Below are positions 397 to 5,253 of a DNA stretch of 64,000 bases, piece after piece. Numbering within the stretch: position 1 is the first letter of the stretch; the number at the start of each line of letters is the position of its first letter. The stretch spans positions 666 through 64,665 of the forward strand of contig JAJPIJ010000023.1 of NCBI GenBank assembly GCA_021324815.1, in the 5' to 3' direction. The position numbers and the translations under genes are program-made. Under the pieces are notes generated by a model, which was not told the origin of the DNA, did not search any database, and was given only the letters and a program-made list of their open reading frames with translations. Origin of the DNA: Gammaproteobacteria bacterium (GTDB lineage: Bacteria > Pseudomonadota > Gammaproteobacteria > JAJPIJ01).

Positions 397-927
397 TTAC
401 CGCCGGACGGGTCGCTTCTTGAGCTTGCGCTGCAAGGTGCGGCGGTGCATGCGCAGCCGCCGCGCCGCCTCCGAGATGTTGCCGGCGGAGTCGCTCAGCA
501 CCTTCTGGATGTGCTCCCATTCCAGCCGCTTGATGGACGGCCGGTCGCCGGCCACGGGCGTCAGACTCGATCCCGCTGCGCGCGTCAGGGCGGCGACGAT
601 TTCATCGGCGTCCGCCGGCTTGGCGAGGTAGTGCACCGCGCCGAGCTTGATGGCCTCCACGGCGGTGGCGATGCTGGCGTAGCCGGTCAGCACCACGATG
701 CGGATGCCGGAATGAAGGCAGCGGAGCTGCTCGATCAGCGCCAGACCGCTTGTCCCCGGCAGGCGCAAATCCACAATGGCGTCATCGAAGCGCGTGCCGC
801 GCGCGAGCGCCATGGCGGCCGTCGCATCGGCCGCCGTCTGGACCGCATAACCGCGAGCCGCGAGCGCGCCGGCCAGCACGCCCCGGAAGGTGTCATCGTC
901 ATCGACCAGCAGCAGGGAGCGGCTCAT
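397..927 (-). CDS. regA: RegA/PrrA/ActR-family response regulator
   Basis: Receiver domain (LLVDDD, VDLRLP, LTGYASIATAVEAIKLGAVHYLAKP) plus the diagnostic effector region LEWEHIQKVL...NISEAARRLRMHRRTLQRKL. Confidence 0.93.
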   Translation of the reverse strand: MSRSLLLVDDDDTFRGVLAGALAARGYAVQTAADATAAMALARGTRFDDAIVDLRLPGTSGLALIEQLRCLHSGIRIVVLTGYASIATAVEAIKLGAVHYLAKPADADEIVAALTRAAGSSLTPVAGDRPSIKRLEWEHIQKVLSDSAGNISEAARRLRMHRRTLQRKLKKRPVRR

Positions 928-2144
928 GCAAGCAGGGTCTTGAGCGGCAGGCTGATTTCGGCGACGACGCCGCGGCCGGCGGCGCGCTCACGCAGGACCA
1001 GTCTCCCGCCGAGGCGCTTGAGCGCAAGGTGGGCGAGGGGGAGTCCCATGCCCAATCCGTGCGGCTTGGTGGTGACGAAGGCCCGGCCGACGCGCGCCGC
1101 GATCCCCGGCGGCAGCCCGCCGCCTTCGTCGCGAATCAGCACCTTCAGTTCCGATTCATCCCAGCGGCCCTCGATCTCAACGCGGCCCGGCGAGGCGTCG
1201 GCGGCGTTGTGCAGGACGTTCATGATCGCCTGCGACAGCGTGCGATCGGCGATGATGCAGGGCGGCGGCTGCGGACCGCGCAGTTGCACACTGACTTCGG
1301 GGTCGGGACGCAATATCCGCCATTCGTCGACGAGCTGCGCGAGATAACGGTCCACATCCACCCGCCCGCCGCCCAGGGCCTGGGCCTGCCCCGACTGCGC
1401 GCTCATGCGGGAGAGGATGTCCTTGCAGCGGTCGATTTGCCCGCGCAACACGCGCAGGCCATCGACCAGCCCGGGATCGCCCTGCCGCTCCCGCTGCAGG
1501 TCCTTGGCCAGCACGGCCATCGTTGACAGCGGCGTTCCCAGTTCATGGCAGGTGCCGGCCGCGAGCGACCCCAGCGCCAGCCACTGCCTCGCCTCGGCCA
1601 GCTCGCGGTCATGGGCGCGCAGGGTCGCGCCGATGCGGGCGACGAAGTAGGCGACCACCACGGCGCTCAGCAGGAATCCGAACCACATGCCCCACAGGTG
1701 CGGCGAGTAATGATCGTCCTCGTGCACCCAGTGCAGGGTGTGCTGATGCAGGAACATGAGCGCCGTGTAGCAGGCGGCGGCGCAGGCCACCAGCAGCCAG
1801 GTGTAGGCGGGTCGCAGCGTGGCCGCGGCCACGGTGACGGGCAGCAGGAACAGGGAGACGAAGGGGTTCCAGGAGCCGCCGGTGAAATACAGCAGCGCGG
1901 TGAGCGCGCCGATGTCGAGGAACAACTGGCACAGCACCTCGGCTTCCGGGACCGGCCGGCGCGCCGCGACGCCGCGCCAGGAGAACAGCGTCACCGCCGC
2001 CAGCAGCAGCATCACGCCGATGATCGGCGGCCAGGGCAGCGGCGCGTGCAGGAACATATGCGCGGCGATGAGGGCGGCGATTTGCACGCCCATGGCGAAG
2101 GTCCGCAGCAGCAGCAGGTAACGCAGACAAAGACTGGTCAGCAT
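924..2144 (-). CDS. regB: RegB/PrrB-family redox sensor histidine kinase
   Basis: Several TM helices with the GGxxNPF motif (TGGSWNPF), H-box HELGTPL, the DRCKDIL cysteine motif, and N/G boxes (NVLHNAADA, DEGGG, GLGMGL). Overlaps regA by 4 nt. ATG at 2144 was chosen over the longer ORF. Confidence 0.9.
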   Translation of the reverse strand: MLTSLCLRYLLLLRTFAMGVQIAALIAAHMFLHAPLPWPPIIGVMLLLAAVTLFSWRGVAARRPVPEAEVLCQLFLDIGALTALLYFTGGSWNPFVSLFLLPVTVAAATLRPAYTWLLVACAAACYTALMFLHQHTLHWVHEDDHYSPHLWGMWFGFLLSAVVVAYFVARIGATLRAHDRELAEARQWLALGSLAAGTCHELGTPLSTMAVLAKDLQRERQGDPGLVDGLRVLRGQIDRCKDILSRMSAQSGQAQALGGGRVDVDRYLAQLVDEWRILRPDPEVSVQLRGPQPPPCIIADRTLSQAIMNVLHNAADASPGRVEIEGRWDESELKVLIRDEGGGLPPGIAARVGRAFVTTKPHGLGMGLPLAHLALKRLGGRLVLRERAAGRGVVAEISLPLKTLLA

Positions 2145-2175
2145 GAGGAGCGGCCCGGGATCACCGAGAGATTTG

Positions 2176-2184
2176 ATTATATCA
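2176..2184 (-). promoter_or_regulatory. Extended -10 promoter for regB (TG-A-TATAAT)
   Basis: The minus strand reads TGATATAAT about 30 nt upstream of the regB ATG. Confidence 0.6.
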
Positions 2185-2233
2185 AGCCATTGCCGGCCGT
2201 GAGCGGCCTGAATCCCGGCGGTGGCCGGCAAGG

Positions 2234-2250
2234 TGCGACATTTTGCCGCA
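2234..2250. promoter_or_regulatory. RegA/RegR/PrrA binding box
   Basis: TGCGACATTTTGCCGCA; the reverse complement contains GCGGC-AAAAT-GTCGC, matching the RegR-box consensus GCGGC-N5-GTCGC. It lies in the intergenic region next to regBA. Confidence 0.75.
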
Positions 2251-2272
2251 GTCCGGGGGAGGCTGATTTCGC

Positions 2273-2278
2273 TAGACT
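2273..2278 (+). promoter_or_regulatory. Candidate -10 element (TAGACT) for the copper cassette
   Basis: TAnnnT hexamer about 50 nt before ATG 2328 with no recognisable -35. The RegA box abuts the -35 position. Confidence 0.4.
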
Positions 2279-2327
2279 GCGTTTTCACGATGCGACACGC
2301 GCCATTCAGGAAATACAACGGAAAAAA

Positions 2328-3305
2328 ATGCGGACTTCGACGACGATTCAAGGCCCCTTCAAAAAGCTGCTGTTGGTGGGCACGACAATCTGTTGGGTGT
2401 CATACACCGCGATGGCGCAAGCCCATGGATTCGCGGGCAGGCGCTTCTTTCCGGCCACGATAGCCACGGATGATCCGTTCATGAACGATGAAGCCGGGCT
2501 GGTGTTTGGTAACACTTGGGAACCGGACATTGACACCCATACCGACACGACGATCTCAGGCGAATGGGCCAAGACCATCACCCCAACCTTTGGGTTCTCG
2601 ATAGGCAACGCATTTCACCACATCAATCCTAAGGAAGGAAAAGACATAAACGGCTTCGAGAATCTCGATGTCGGAGCCAAGTGGCAGTTTTACACCAACG
2701 ACCCCAACGAGACCATCTTGTCCATCGGCTTGAATGCCGAGGTTGGAGGTACGGGGAGCGCGCATCTCGGTGTTGACCCCTTTTCCACGGTCTCACCCAC
2801 CTTCTTCTTCGGCCAGGGGATGGGATTCCTGCCGGAATCGATGAAAATGTTGAGGCCTTTTGCGGTGACCGGGACCTTGAGCGCCGACATTCCCACGGTG
2901 TCGACGATTGAGAGCACAGGGAAGAAACCGGCCACGAACTTGAGCTGGGGGATCTCGCTGCAATACAATCTCCAGTACCTGCAATCCTTTGTTCGCGACA
3001 TGGGACTGCCGGCGCCCTTCAACCGAATGATCCCGTTGGTCGAATTCCCAATGACGACATGCGTGAATCGAGATTGTGACGGACAAACGACCGGCTTTGT
3101 CGCACCGGGCGTCATTTGGTTTGGGAAGCACACGCAATTCGGTCTGGAGGCCCAGATACCCATCGATGACCGCAGTGGCCATGACGCCGGCATCATGGCC
3201 CAAGTACATTTCTTCATTGACGACATTTTCCCGGATTCCCTGGGCCGACCCTTGATCGGCGCGAAGAAGGCCTATCCAGCGTGGTGGGGCGGCTCCCGCG
3301 AGTAA
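2328..3305 (+). CDS. Uncharacterised secreted protein, predicted outer-membrane beta-barrel with mature N-terminal His
   Basis: Signal peptide ending AQA followed by HGFAGRRFFPATIATDDP. Alternating hydrophobic/aromatic strand-like segments (NLDVGAKWQFY, ILSIGLNAEVG, LSWGISLQYNL, TQFGLEAQIP, MAQVHFFIDD). First gene of the copC-copD operon. Confidence 0.7.
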   Translation: MRTSTTIQGPFKKLLLVGTTICWVSYTAMAQAHGFAGRRFFPATIATDDPFMNDEAGLVFGNTWEPDIDTHTDTTISGEWAKTITPTFGFSIGNAFHHINPKEGKDINGFENLDVGAKWQFYTNDPNETILSIGLNAEVGGTGSAHLGVDPFSTVSPTFFFGQGMGFLPESMKMLRPFAVTGTLSADIPTVSTIESTGKKPATNLSWGISLQYNLQYLQSFVRDMGLPAPFNRMIPLVEFPMTTCVNRDCDGQTTGFVAPGVIWFGKHTQFGLEAQIPIDDRSGHDAGIMAQVHFFIDDIFPDSLGRPLIGAKKAYPAWWGGSRE

Positions 3306-3652
3306 TCACGCTGGCGATCGCGCTGGCTTCGGCGGCCTGGCAACCGAAGACATGGGGCCATGCCTTTCTGGATCATGGCGAACCCAGGGTGGGCGCTGAA
3401 CTGGCGGCATCGCCACAACAAATAGTGCTGTACTTCGATAGCGAACTGGAACCCGCCTTTTCGGGATTGGTCCTGGAAGACGCGGACGGTCATGAGATCA
3501 AGCGAAGCGGGACGCAAAATGATGCCGGCGATCCCACGAGGCTTTCCATGCCGTGTCCTCCGCTCGGTTCCGGTACCTACCGGGTGCGCTGGAGCGTCGT
3601 CGCACGGGACGGGCACCGCACGGAGGGAGATTACACCTTCTCCGTCCACTAG
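3281..3652 (+). CDS. copC: Periplasmic copper-binding protein CopC
   Basis: Signal peptide, then mature N-terminal HAFL, the FDSELEPAFS segment, and C-terminal YRVRWSVVARDGHRTEGDYTFSV with the DGH Cu(II) motif. Confidence 0.92.
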   Translation: MVGRLPRVITLAIALASAAWQPKTWGHAFLDHGEPRVGAELAASPQQIVLYFDSELEPAFSGLVLEDADGHEIKRSGTQNDAGDPTRLSMPCPPLGSGTYRVRWSVVARDGHRTEGDYTFSVH

Positions 3653-3662
3653 GAACCCACAC

Positions 3663-4676
3663 TTGCTCGGTTCGCCTCTCCACCTTCTCCCTTCGTTTTT
3701 TGATCTACTGGCGTTGGGTACGATTTTGGGGGCGTTAAGCATCCGGCTTTGGGTGTTCCCCCGCGCCGGTCGTACGGAAGAGACGGTCGTCTTTGCGAGC
3801 ATCGGCGGCAGATTCACAAGCCTGCTTACGTGGTCGCTCCTTCTTCTCACCGCCACCAGCGTGGCGGTTCTGGTGGTGCGCGCCGCGGAAATAAGCGGTC
3901 AGCCTTATGGCGCCGTATCGCGGGTATTGCCCGCGGTACTGTTCAAAACTCACTATGGGACAATCTGGTTCCTGCGGCTTGCGGCCCTGTTTGTGCTGTG
4001 GGCGGGCGTGTTGGCGATGCGCCGAACCGGCGGCGCCGCCGCGCCCGCGGCAGCCTTTGTCGCCGCCGCGGCCATTGCCTGGACTTACAGCGCAACGGGT
4101 CACGCCAGCGATCAAGGCGACTTCACGATTATTCAAACCATGGACTGGCTGCACCTACTCGCCATCTCGGCATGGGGCGGCGGCCTGCTTGCCGTGACCC
4201 TTGTCATTCGGCCTGCATTGGCGGAAAAGATGAATGAACACCAGGTGAAAAATCTCAGCGGGATTTGCCGGCGGCTGTCCCGGCTCGCCGGCTGCTCGCT
4301 CCTTGTGGTCATCGTTACCGGAAGCTACGGCGCCTGGCGCCATGTTCCCGGCCTTGCCGCGCTTGGGGACACGATTTACGGGCGGGCGCTGAGCGTGAAG
4401 TTGTTTTTCGTTCTCACGATGGTTCTGCTGGGGGCAATCAACCGTTACCTGGTCCTGCCGAAATTGCCTGCATCCGGAGGCGCATCTGCCACCGGTGGCG
4501 GGCAATCAGGCGCGGACCTCTTGCGGCAATTCTTCCGAAGGGTCGGTCAGGAAGCCTTCCTCATGATCCTCGTGCTGGGTTGTGTCACGTTCCTGATTCA
4601 CAGCCCGCCGCCAGGTCCGTTCATGGATATGACGCGTCATCACCCTGCACACATACGGGACGCGGAAGGGCCCTGA
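3663..4676 (+). CDS. copD: Inner-membrane copper transport protein CopD
   Basis: Multi-TM protein with TGHA, DWLHLLAISAWGGGL, SRLAGCSLLVVIVTGSY and YGRALSVKLFFVLTMVLLGAINRY. TTG start at 3663 follows AGGAA, directly after copC. Confidence 0.88.
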   Translation: MLGSPLHLLPSFFDLLALGTILGALSIRLWVFPRAGRTEETVVFASIGGRFTSLLTWSLLLLTATSVAVLVVRAAEISGQPYGAVSRVLPAVLFKTHYGTIWFLRLAALFVLWAGVLAMRRTGGAAAPAAAFVAAAAIAWTYSATGHASDQGDFTIIQTMDWLHLLAISAWGGGLLAVTLVIRPALAEKMNEHQVKNLSGICRRLSRLAGCSLLVVIVTGSYGAWRHVPGLAALGDTIYGRALSVKLFFVLTMVLLGAINRYLVLPKLPASGGASATGGGQSGADLLRQFFRRVGQEAFLMILVLGCVTFLIHSPPPGPFMDMTRHHPAHIRDAEGP

Positions 4677-4689
4677 CCGGCGGCCTGCG

Positions 4690-5253
4690 TTATTTCGGCG
4701 GCGAAGTCGCGATGCGAAGGAGACGGACGGATTTTTTGAACAGCTCGGATTGATGCTTGGCGACGAACGCGGCGATCGTTTTGGCGTCAGCGGCAAGATG
4801 GACCTCCGGCGCGTAGCTGCTGTCATCGGCCCTGCCCGCGATCTCGCCACGCCGCACCGCCGCGCGCGCGGCTTCAGGATCAAGCAGGCTCAATTCAACC
4901 GCGTCGCCCCCGGCCGAGTACCGCAACAAAAGATAACCCTCGCCGGAATCCCCGCCGTGCAGATTCAGATAGCGCACACCCTTCAAAATGGAAGTATGGC
5001 CCTGGTAGTGGGAAACGCGGGTTTGTCCATCGGCGGAGGGCTCGGTCACCGTGATGTTCAGGCTGTGCCGGTCCCGCGCCTCGACGACCACCGTCATGGT
5101 CCGCTCCTCGTCGCGCCAGGTGCCGGGCAGGGCCTTGTCGATCTTCGCCGACGCCACCGGCGTGAGTGGCTGCGGCAGTGTCGCCACGCAACCCGCGAGA
5201 CCAAGAACCGCGAGGAGGGACAGCAGCCGGTTTGTCGTTCGTCGCCGCATCAC
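4690..5253 (-). CDS. Hypothetical lipoprotein
   Basis: Basic N-terminus, hydrophobic stretch and lipobox LAGC; typical codon usage; no recognised domain. Confidence 0.7.
   Translation of the reverse strand: MMRRRTTNRLLSLLAVLGLAGCVATLPQPLTPVASAKIDKALPGTWRDEERTMTVVVEARDRHSLNITVTEPSADGQTRVSHYQGHTSILKGVRYLNLHGGDSGEGYLLLRYSAGGDAVELSLLDPEAARAAVRRGEIAGRADDSSYAPEVHLAADAKTIAAFVAKHQSELFKKSVRLLRIATSPPK

What the first reader, a model, noticed from the sequence alone, without database searches (positions are those of the whole stretch)
2234..2278. Textbook RegA/RegR box at class II activator distance from the copper cassette promoter
Seen: TGCGAC-ATTTT-GCCGCA (reverse complement GCGGC-N5-GTCGC with an AT-rich spacer) ends where a -35 would lie for the -10 TAGACT (2273-2278), which has no consensus -35. 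Established: this is the consensus recognised by RegR/PrrA-family regulators. It directly links the adjacent regulator to the copper genes and may also feed back on regB, whose predicted start lies about 70 bp away on the other strand.
Basis: partly seen in the sequence, partly recalled or inferred. Interest (0 to 1): 0.65.

Follow-up and report, generated by a model that had tools for sequence, protein, structure and literature searches.

The report
RegA operator controlling a copper-uptake operon
A 17-base binding site for the redox regulator RegA sits where a promoter's -35 element would be, in front of a three-gene copper-handling operon. The same site-to-promoter spacing recurs in distant bacteria, so respiratory redox state probably switches copper acquisition on directly.

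Summary
TGCGAC-ATTTT-GCCGCA is at 2234-2250 and TAGACT at 2273-2278, 22 nt after the box, with no -35 consensus between them.

The box matches all three published RegR, PrrA and RegA consensus strings. It is the only site in the 2.37-Mb genome that meets both the RegR and PrrA patterns. It is also the top hit (25.4 bits, next 19.1) of a matrix built only from relatives' boxes.

The flanking genes are a single regB-regA pair on the minus strand. RegA's recognition helix is identical to PrrA's. On the plus strand lies an operon of a 12-stranded outer-membrane barrel, CopC and CopD.

The divergent regBA<>barrel-copC-copD module recurs in four other distant lineages, each with the box. A TAnnnT hexamer lies 22-23 nt after the box, pointing away from regB, in 9 of 11 box instances (chance about 1e-15). 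Two of those instances sit in front of other copper-linked genes (MbnP, or a barrel in a PCuAC/Sco island).

The box is also kept upstream of regB in relatives that lack the cassette, which fits autoregulation.

No RNA data exist, so the start sites, RegA binding and the direction of control are inferred. This is a well-supported new target of a known regulator type.

The parts
2234..2250 (.). RegA/PrrA/RegR-type operator TGCGAC-ATTTT-GCCGCA (15-bp core at 2235-2249), an imperfect inverted repeat with an A+T spacer
   Evidence: Sequence read. It matches three published consensus strings and is the unique RegR+PrrA site in the genome. It is the top matrix hit in the genome. It is conserved in relatives.
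2273..2278 (+). Predicted -10 hexamer TAGACT of the barrel-copC-copD promoter, 22 nt after the box
   Evidence: The equivalent TAnnnT sits at 22-23 nt in 9 of 11 box instances, against a background of 0.0071 per position.
2250..2255 (+). -35 window (AGTCCG) without consensus, overlapped by the last base of the box
   Evidence: The consensus promoter scan finds no sigma-70 promoter with a -35 in 1900-2600. The same windows in the orthologous promoters are equally poor.
2285..2285 (+). Inferred transcription start of the cassette (about 7 nt after the -10), which places the box centre near -43
   Evidence: Inference from the -10 position only. No RNA data are available.
2176..2184 (-). Predicted extended -10 (TGATATAAT) of the regBA promoter, 52 nt from the box, so the box centre is about -73
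   Evidence: The TGATTATATCAA block is 12/12 identical in the same-genus genome G001. TATAAT is also present on the regB side in L076 and L062.
924..2144 (-). regB-type redox sensor kinase (406 aa)
   Evidence: NF033792 ActS/PrrB/RegB is the best family at 233.8 bits, below the 350-bit equivalog cut-off. HisKA and HATPase_c domains are present. The GGSWNPF motif is visible in the translation.
397..927 (-). regA-type response regulator (176 aa) with a receiver domain and a Fis-type HTH
   Evidence: NF033791 ActR/PrrA/RegA is the best family at 180.5 bits, below the 250-bit cut-off. PDB matches are 3RQI at 4e-46 and 1UMQ (PrrA effector domain), with an identical MHRRTLQR helix. It is the only such gene in the genome.
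2328..3305 (+). First gene of the cassette: an exported 325-aa outer-membrane beta-barrel with no Pfam or NCBIfam family
   Evidence: No family hits. AlphaFold model has pLDDT 86.4 and pTM 0.80 and is a barrel. The closest solved folds are FapF, NanC and the COG4313 channel 4RL8. It lies directly upstream of copC in nearly all of the 51 related loci.
3281..3652 (+). copC (periplasmic copper-binding protein), which overlaps the barrel gene by 25 nt
   Evidence: PF04234 at 1.9e-21. NF007636 and NF033814 also match, but below their cut-offs.
3663..4676 (+). copD (inner-membrane copper protein)
   Evidence: PF05425 at 2.5e-16 and NF033808 at 117 bits.
2290..2295 (+). Extra TGCGAC half-site just after the predicted start of the cassette transcript; function unknown
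   Evidence: Not conserved in position in the other loci.

Best explanation
The 17-bp element at 2234-2250 is a genuine operator for the adjacent RegA-family response regulator.

Main job: it acts as the activator site of a -35-less sigma-70 promoter for the outer-membrane-barrel/copC/copD operon. The RegB kinase becomes active when the quinone pool is reduced. A RegA~P dimer then binds the inverted repeat centred about 43 nt upstream of the start. It overlaps the position of the missing -35 and recruits RNA polymerase to the TAGACT -10. Copper acquisition across both membranes is thereby switched on together with the need for copper-dependent respiratory enzymes.

Second job: the same site lies about 73 nt upstream of the regBA promoter (TGATATAAT on the other strand) and probably also feeds back on regBA.

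What is shown: the sequence, its uniqueness in the genome, its conservation, the fixed spacing to a -10-like hexamer, the identity of the genes, and the conserved RegA recognition helix.

What is inferred: RegA binding, both start sites, the direction of control (activation), and import as the direction of copper transport.
For: 1. The box is a perfect match to the RegR, PrrA and RegA consensus strings and is the only RegR+PrrA site in 2.37 Mb. With its own sequence left out of the matrix, it is the top genome hit at 25.4 bits against 19.1.

2. The genome has a single regBA pair. The RegA HTH is NISEAARRLRMHRRTLQRKL, against PrrA's NVSETARRLNMHRRTLQRIL.

3. The divergent regA-regB<>barrel-copC-copD arrangement recurs in L029, L056/L059, L062 and L076/L033, where RegB is only 40-51% identical. 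Every one of these loci has the box.

4. A TAnnnT hexamer lies 22-23 nt after the box, pointing away from regB, in 9 of 11 instances. The hexamers are TAGACT (own), TAAAAT, TACAAT, TAGAAT, TAGCCT, TAGTAT, TATACT, TAAGAT and TAAAAT. The background is 0.0071 per position, giving a binomial tail of about 1e-15. None of these promoters has a usable -35.

5. Other genes driven by the same arrangement are also linked to copper or to the outer membrane:
- an MbnP-family copper-binding protein in G009;
- PF13557 barrels in G025 and G039;
- a barrel in G001, in an island that also holds PCuAC and SCO1/SenC.

6. The cassette of G002 is not next to regB, yet TGCGGCATTATGTCGCA lies about 100 bp upstream of it.

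7. For regB feedback, the 15-bp core is 15/15 identical upstream of regB in G001. The box is also present upstream of regB in the five g3-genus genomes, and in G009, G018, G025 and G039, where the cassette is absent.

8. There is published precedent:
- regBA operons are autoregulated (PMC5506826);
- expression of copCAB depends on RegR in B. japonicum (PMC4064962);
- RegA up-regulates an SCO1/SenC gene in B. pseudomallei (PMC8191878);
- RegR activates fixR-nifA P2 from about -67.
Against: - No RNA run holds the locus, so neither start site is mapped. The -10 is assigned from pattern and conservation only.
- A site that overlaps the -35 region can repress as well as activate, and RegA is known to do both.
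- Most barrel-copC-copD cassettes that are not next to regBA have no box. This includes Burkholderiales, Casimicrobiaceae, Rhodanobacteraceae and Lysobacteraceae MAGs.
- The G002 cassette box lacks a -10-like hexamer at 22-23 nt.
- Against G001, similarity ends right after the box. The box therefore belongs to the regB-side conserved block and not to the cassette.
- Both proteins score below NCBIfam's equivalog cut-offs.
- In At. ferrooxidans, the published consensus strings did not predict the sites that RegA actually bound (PMC5506826).
Confidence: 0.6

Rival explanations
1. The box is only the autoregulatory operator of regBA. The cassette landed next to it, and the match of its -10 spacing has no function.
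For: The box is kept upstream of regB in genomes without the cassette (G001, the g3 genus, G018, G025, G039). The synteny break between this genome and G001 lies immediately after the box. In the g3 genus the box is 23 nt from a regB-side TAGAAT. Autoregulation of regBA is the documented norm (PMC5506826). Cassettes not linked to regBA mostly lack the box.
Against: The 22-23 nt spacing to a -10-like hexamer on the non-regB strand recurs in 9 of 11 instances, whereas the regB-side -10 lies anywhere from 22 to 52 nt away. The cassette promoter has no -35 of its own. G002's cassette has a box without regB beside it. The five-gene module recurs across distant lineages.
Confidence: 0.15
2. RegA bound at the box represses the cassette by occluding the -35 region. 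Copper uptake would then be shut off under reducing conditions.
For: The box abuts or overlaps the -35 window. RegA-family proteins repress some operons such as hup, dor and cbb3 oxidase, as summarised in PMC5506826 and PMC5359404.
Against: None of the orthologous promoters has a recognisable -35, which is the mark of activator dependence. A repressor site would not need a fixed 22-23 nt distance from the -10. RegR and RegA act positively on copCAB and SCO1/SenC in the two species tested.
Confidence: 0.15
3. The site is bound by a different regulator, or it is a chance G+C-rich inverted repeat with no function.
For: GCGNC-N5-GNCGC is frequent in this genome, with 1506 matches. The RegR pattern alone is at chance level in the window. 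The published RegA consensus strings are degenerate and failed in At. ferrooxidans.
Against: The box is the only RegR+PrrA site and the top matrix hit in the genome. It is conserved in position next to regB across genera and families whose intergenic DNA is otherwise unalignable. It always travels with regBA.
Confidence: 0.05

Closest known systems
RegR box of Bradyrhizobium japonicum (fixR-nifA upstream activating site; Emmerich et al. 2000, consensus GNGRCRTTNNGNCGC)
   Same: A 15/15 match to the consensus, with an imperfect inverted repeat and an A+T spacer. The regulator is of the same family and has the same recognition helix. RegR also controls copper genes (copCAB) positively.
   Different: The B. 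japonicum site lies around -67. Here the site is about -43 for the cassette and about -73 for regBA. The host is an uncultured gammaproteobacterium, not an alphaproteobacterium. Binding has not been tested.
[quoted passage not shown]
   Same: Perfect match on the minus strand to the PrrA string, and on both strands to the RegA string. The half-sites are 5 nt apart. The regulator gene cluster is autoregulated.
   Different: In Rhodobacter the copper-chaperone gene senC/prrC lies inside the reg cluster. Here the copper genes form a separate divergent operon and encode a barrel, CopC and CopD.
Class II activator-dependent promoters (CRP or FNR at -41.5)
   Same: A dimeric activator site replaces the -35 element. 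The distance to the -10 is fixed. One palindromic site can serve two back-to-back promoters, as in L056 and L013, where -10-like hexamers lie 22-24 nt away on both sides.
   Different: The regulator is a Fis-type-HTH response regulator, not a CRP/FNR protein. The centre is about -43/-44 rather than -41.5. The mechanism of polymerase contact is unknown.
RegBA autoregulation (R. capsulatus regB and senC-regA-hvrA promoters; At. ferrooxidans regBA)
   Same: A RegA-type box lies upstream of regB and is conserved where no other target is adjacent. RegA binding to its own operon's control region is reported (PMC5506826).
   Different: In this genome the regB -10 is 52 nt from the box, so any feedback would act from an upstream position rather than from the -35 region.

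Membership tests
RegA/PrrA/RegR (ActR, RoxR) binding site | Sequence fits the published consensus strings (RegR GNGRCRTTNNGNCGC; PrrA YSCGGC-N5-GWCRMA; RegA SSGNVRDNHYSNCSS) | tested here: met
   All three are matched perfectly. It is the only genome site that meets RegR and PrrA together. The strings are quoted from PMC5506826.
RegA/PrrA/RegR (ActR, RoxR) binding site | A cognate regulator with the family's DNA-recognition helix is encoded in the genome | tested here: met
   The gene at 397-927(-) has NF033791 as its best family at 180.5 bits, below the 250-bit cut-off. Its MHRRTLQR helix is identical to PrrA 1UMQ. It is a single copy.
RegA/PrrA/RegR (ActR, RoxR) binding site | Conservation of the site at orthologous control regions | tested here: met
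   The box is present upstream of regB, or between regB and its divergent partner, in 16 of 21 other regB loci examined.
RegA/PrrA/RegR (ActR, RoxR) binding site | Physical binding by the regulator (EMSA or footprint) | not testable with these tools
   This needs purified protein.
RegA/PrrA/RegR (ActR, RoxR) binding site | Expression of the adjacent genes depends on the regulator | not testable with these tools
   No RNA runs hold the locus and the organism is uncultured.
Class II-type activator-dependent promoter | Activator site abuts or overlaps the -35 position at a fixed distance from the -10 | tested here: met
   22 nt separate the box and TAGACT. The gap is 22-23 nt in 9 of 11 instances, with a binomial tail of about 1e-15. 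The -10 itself is predicted, not mapped.
Class II-type activator-dependent promoter | No functional -35 hexamer | tested here: met
   The -35 window is AGTCCG. The consensus scan finds no promoter, and the orthologous promoters are equally poor.
Class II-type activator-dependent promoter | Mapped start site and activator-dependent initiation | not testable with these tools
   No transcript data.
RegB/RegA two-component system (the regulator pair itself) | RegB has a multi-pass membrane domain with the GGxxNPF quinone motif, a conserved cytosolic Cys and a kinase core | tested here: met
   GGSWNPF and RCKDIL are visible in the translation. HisKA and HATPase_c are present. NF033792 is the best family, but at 233.8 bits it is below the 350-bit equivalog cut-off. 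The motif definitions come from PMC8191878.
CopC/CopD copper system | CopC and CopD domains encoded in tandem | tested here: met
   PF04234 at 77 bits and PF05425 at 60 bits, both above the Pfam cut-offs. The NCBIfam equivalog scores are below their cut-offs. Whether transport is import or resistance was not tested.

The most novel reading that the evidence does not exclude
regA-regB, the box, and the barrel-copC-copD operon form an old five-gene module that has spread among Gamma- and Betaproteobacteria (and one MAG labelled Myxococcota). One palindromic RegA site, held 22-23 nt from a -10, couples the redox state of the quinone pool directly to copper import across both membranes. More generally, RegBA in these lineages acts as a dedicated controller of copper acquisition, driving barrel-CopCD, MbnP or barrel/PCuAC/Sco gene sets from the same promoter design. 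In some genomes the same site also works as a bidirectional class II site for regB.
Probability: 0.45. Interest if true: 0.6.

Novelty: new member of a known kind. Interest (0 to 1): 0.45.

Why it matters
RegB/RegA is the main redox switch for respiration in many Proteobacteria. Its published binding consensus strings are so degenerate that target prediction usually fails. At. ferrooxidans is a case on record (PMC5506826).

This locus offers an unusually clean, conserved promoter design: box, 22-23 nt, then the -10. That design could be used to find direct RegA targets in uncultured Gamma- and Betaproteobacteria.

It also gives a testable link between respiratory redox sensing and copper supply for copper enzymes. 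It places a still unnamed outer-membrane barrel family, together with CopC and CopD, under that control.

A link between RegBA and copper chaperones (SenC/PrrC, copCAB) is already known. This is therefore an extension of known biology and not a surprise.

Tried and rejected
- **Consensus promoter scan of 1900-2600.** It found nothing. This is expected for a promoter without a -35 and says little either way.
- **RNA evidence.** Two searches for sequencing runs found only soil and mine DNA metagenomes, so start sites could not be mapped.
- **Regulon scan in the own genome.**
  - The composite pattern (box, 23-24 nt, TAnnnT) gives only 2 hits, and this one is the only hit with an A+T spacer.
  - The next matrix hits lie inside genes or are unconvincing.
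  - The other two A+T-spacer boxes lie inside genes on contig C49.
  - No wider regulon could be defined.
- **Primary papers.** The Elsen 2004 review, Emmerich 2000 and Eraso 2009 are not held in the library. The consensus strings were therefore taken as quoted in PMC5506826.
- **Cassettes in other phyla and unlinked cassettes.** Cassettes in Nitrospirota, Methylomirabilota and Zetaproteobacteria, and most unlinked proteobacterial cassettes, show no box. I did not check whether those genomes encode RegA at all.
- **Helical phasing on the regB side.** The box-to-(-10) distances are 22-24, 32, 38, 42 and 51-52 nt, which follow no clean 10.5-nt rule.
- **Chance.** Rejected on the grounds of conservation and genome-wide uniqueness.
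- **Other regulators.** I considered CopR/CusR, CueR and LysR-type T-N11-A readings from memory. None fits the sequence.

Full report
**1. The observation**

TGCGAC is at 2234-2239, ATTTT at 2240-2244 and GCCGCA at 2245-2250. TAGACT is at 2273-2278, 22 nt after the box. The hexamer that would be a -35 at a 17-nt spacer is AGTCCG (2250-2255). A consensus promoter scan finds no sigma-70 promoter with both hexamers anywhere in 1900-2600.

The box lies in the 183-bp gap between two divergent genes. One is a minus-strand kinase gene that starts at 2144. The other is a plus-strand gene that starts at 2328.

**2. Is it more than chance?**

The loose pattern GCGNC-N5-GNCGC is uninformative in this 64% G+C genome. 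It occurs 27 times in the window against 18 expected, and 1506 times in the genome. The RegR pattern alone is at chance level in the window: 1 found, 0.87 expected.

The specific box is nevertheless exceptional.
- The three published consensus strings are quoted in PMC5506826: RegR GNGRCRTTNNGNCGC, PrrA YSCGGC(5)GWCRMA and RegA SSGNVRDNHYSNCSS. All three are matched perfectly.
- The box is the only place in the 2.37-Mb genome that meets the RegR and PrrA strings together.
- GCGNC-W5-GNCGC occurs at three genome sites. The other two lie inside genes on another contig.
- A weight matrix built from the boxes of relatives, with the own box left out, ranks it first in the genome. It scores 25.4 bits against 19.1 for the next hit.

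**3. The genes around it**

*Minus strand.*
- 924-2144 encodes a RegB-type kinase. NF033792 is the best family at 233.8 bits. HisKA and HATPase_c domains are present, and so are the GGSWNPF quinone motif and a conserved Cys.
- 397-927 encodes a RegA-type regulator. NF033791 is the best family at 180.5 bits. It has a receiver domain and a Fis-type HTH.
- Both scores are below NCBIfam's equivalog cut-offs, so these are divergent members of the family.
- The RegA DNA-binding helix is the family's. The sequence NISEAARRLRMHRRTLQRKL compares with NVSETARRLNMHRRTLQRIL in the solved PrrA effector domain 1UMQ. The closest solved protein is 3RQI.
- The genome has one regBA pair only.

*Plus strand.*
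- 2328-3305 encodes an exported 325-aa protein with no Pfam or NCBIfam family.
- 3281-3652 encodes CopC, and 3663-4676 encodes CopD.
- I modelled the 325-aa protein from 31 homologues. The model has pLDDT 86.4 and pTM 0.80 and is an outer-membrane beta-barrel.
- Its nearest solved folds are 12-stranded channels: FapF, NanC and the COG4313 channel 4RL8.
- The cassette therefore encodes one protein for each envelope layer: outer membrane, periplasm and inner membrane.

**4. Comparative evidence that the box goes with regB**

The box sits upstream of regB in family relatives:
- G001 (same genus): GGCGACATTTTGCCGCG
- four g3-genus genomes: TGCGGCAtTTgGCCGCG, plus a second box 17 bp closer to regB
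- G008: TGCGGCAATTCGCCGCA

More distant regB loci also carry it: G009, G018, G025 and G039.

None of these has the cassette next to regB.
- In g3, G004 and G002 the partner is a molybdenum oxidoreductase.
- In G001 the partner region is an island with a thioredoxin-like protein, an outer-membrane protein, PCuAC, SCO1/SenC and a cytochrome c.

Against G001, the regB-side block is conserved. This block includes TGATTATATCAA and the 15/15 box core. Similarity stops directly after the box. The box is therefore an old feature of the regB control region. This fits the autoregulation reported for regBA operons (PMC5506826).

**5. Comparative evidence that the box also serves the cassette**

The barrel-copC-copD trio is a conserved unit in 51 loci from many phyla.
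- In four other lineages it lies divergent from regA-regB exactly as here. These are L029, L056/L059, L062 and L076/L033, with RegB only 40-51% identical. All carry the box between the two operons.
- In G002 the cassette is not near regB, yet TGCGGCATTATGTCGCA lies about 100 bp upstream of it.

A TAnnnT hexamer lies 22-23 nt after the 17-bp box, on the strand pointing away from regB, in 9 of 11 instances:

| Locus | Hexamer |
|---|---|
| own | TAGACT |
| L076 | TAAAAT |
| L056 | TACAAT |
| L062 | TAGAAT |
| L029 | TAGCCT |
| G025 | TAGTAT |
| G039 | TATACT |
| G009 | TAAGAT |
| G001 barrel gene | TAAAAT |

- These are nearly the only TAnnnT matches in the 34 nt scanned. With a background of 0.0071 per position, the binomial tail is about 1e-15.
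- None of the nine has a usable -35.
- On the regB side the -10 lies anywhere from 22 to 52 nt from the box. The constrained distance is therefore the one to the partner gene.
- In the g3 genus the partner is not copper-related. There the same 23-nt rule holds towards regB itself (TAGAAT, followed 6 nt later by the GTG start).
- In L056 and L013, -10-like hexamers lie 22-24 nt away on both sides.

**6. What the box-driven partner genes are**

Besides barrel-CopC-CopD, the partners are:
- an MbnP-family copper-binding protein in G009 (TIGR04052, 245 bits, above the cut-off);
- PF13557 outer-membrane barrels in G025 and G039;
- a barrel in G001, inside the PCuAC/SCO1 island.

Copper acquisition is the common theme. 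There is experimental precedent for RegA-family control of copper genes.
- RegR-dependent expression of copCAB in B. japonicum was confirmed by qRT-PCR (PMC4064962).
- RegA up-regulates an SCO1/SenC gene in B. pseudomallei (PMC8191878).

**7. The most likely mechanism**

When the quinone pool is reduced, RegB phosphorylates RegA. This is established for the family (PMC5359404). A RegA dimer then binds the inverted repeat centred about 43 nt upstream of an inferred start near 2285. It replaces the missing -35 and activates the barrel-copC-copD operon.

The same bound dimer lies about 73 nt upstream of the regBA start. That start is inferred from the extended -10 TGATATAAT at 2184-2176. From there the dimer can feed back on regBA, much as RegR activates fixR-nifA from about -67.

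- Shown: the sequence, its uniqueness, its conservation, the spacing, the gene identities and the conserved recognition helix.
- Inferred: binding, both start sites, the sign of control, and import as the direction of copper transport.

**8. Rival readings**

- *Autoregulation only.* This is supported by points in section 4 and by the lack of boxes at most unlinked cassettes. It does not explain the fixed spacing on the partner side, or G002.
- *Repression.* This is possible for a site at the -35. It does not fit promoters that lack a -35 throughout, or the positive control seen in the two species tested.
- *Chance, or another regulator.* This is unlikely given the conservation and the constant association with regBA.

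**9. What could not be done**

- No RNA run holds the locus. Only soil and mine DNA metagenomes do.
- A regulon scan found no second site of this design in the genome.
- Three primary papers were not held.

**10. Verdict**

This is a new, well-supported target promoter of a known regulator family. It also yields a useful general rule: box, 22-23 nt, then the -10. Experimental proof is still needed.

Noticed in passing
window 2173-2185: The predicted regB extended -10 (TGATATAAT, minus strand) lies inside the perfect palindrome TTGAT-TAT-ATCAA. Twelve of its 13 bases (TGATTATATCAA) are identical in the same-genus genome G001, so a second regulator may bind there.
   Followed up: partly
window 2290-2295: A second TGCGAC half-site lies just downstream of the inferred cassette start. 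It is not conserved in position in the other loci.
   Followed up: partly
L003 3594-3640 and L019 1-3900 (genome G001): At the place where this genome has the barrel-copCD cassette, the sister genome G001 has a different island: a thioredoxin-like protein, an unclassified outer-membrane protein, PCuAC, SCO1/SenC and a cytochrome c. A second box, TGCGACATTTTGTCACA, lies 23 nt upstream of TAAAAT in front of the outer-membrane gene.
   Followed up: partly
L005-L008 (g3-genus genomes), upstream of regB: There are two tandem RegA-type boxes 17 bp apart. TAGAAT lies 23 nt after the distal box, and the regB GTG start codon lies only 6 nt after that hexamer, which suggests a leaderless regB mRNA. The divergent gene there is a sulfite-oxidase-like molybdenum enzyme.
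   Followed up: partly
L013 2845-3834 (genome G009): The gene divergent from regB is an MbnP-family copper-binding protein (TIGR04052, 245 bits). It is followed by an open frame with a CxxCH haem motif that was not run against any family library. The same box-23 nt-TAAGAT design precedes it.
   Followed up: partly
L012 2951-3952 and L014 2927-4093 (genomes G025, G039): PF13557 outer-membrane barrels with His/Met-rich or Cys-rich N-terminal regions are divergent from regB, again with the box 23 nt from a -10-like hexamer.
   Followed up: partly
window 2200-4800: G+C drops to 54-60% across most of the cassette, against 65-72% in regBA and the downstream genes. The break in similarity with G001 starts right after the box. 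The cassette therefore looks like a replaceable island.
   Followed up: partly
window 3281-3305: The barrel gene and copC overlap by 25 nt, and copD starts 10 nt after copC, which suggests a tightly coupled operon.
   Followed up: no
genome contig C49 about 14473 (L001 6474-6490): The second-best RegA-type box in the genome (TGCGTCAAAATGTCGCG, 19.1 bits) lies inside a long minus-strand open frame whose product I did not identify. It is probably not functional.
   Followed up: partly
genome contig C26 16083-16439: There is a second, distant copC-like gene (30% identity) elsewhere in the genome. There is no second copD or barrel gene.
   Followed up: no
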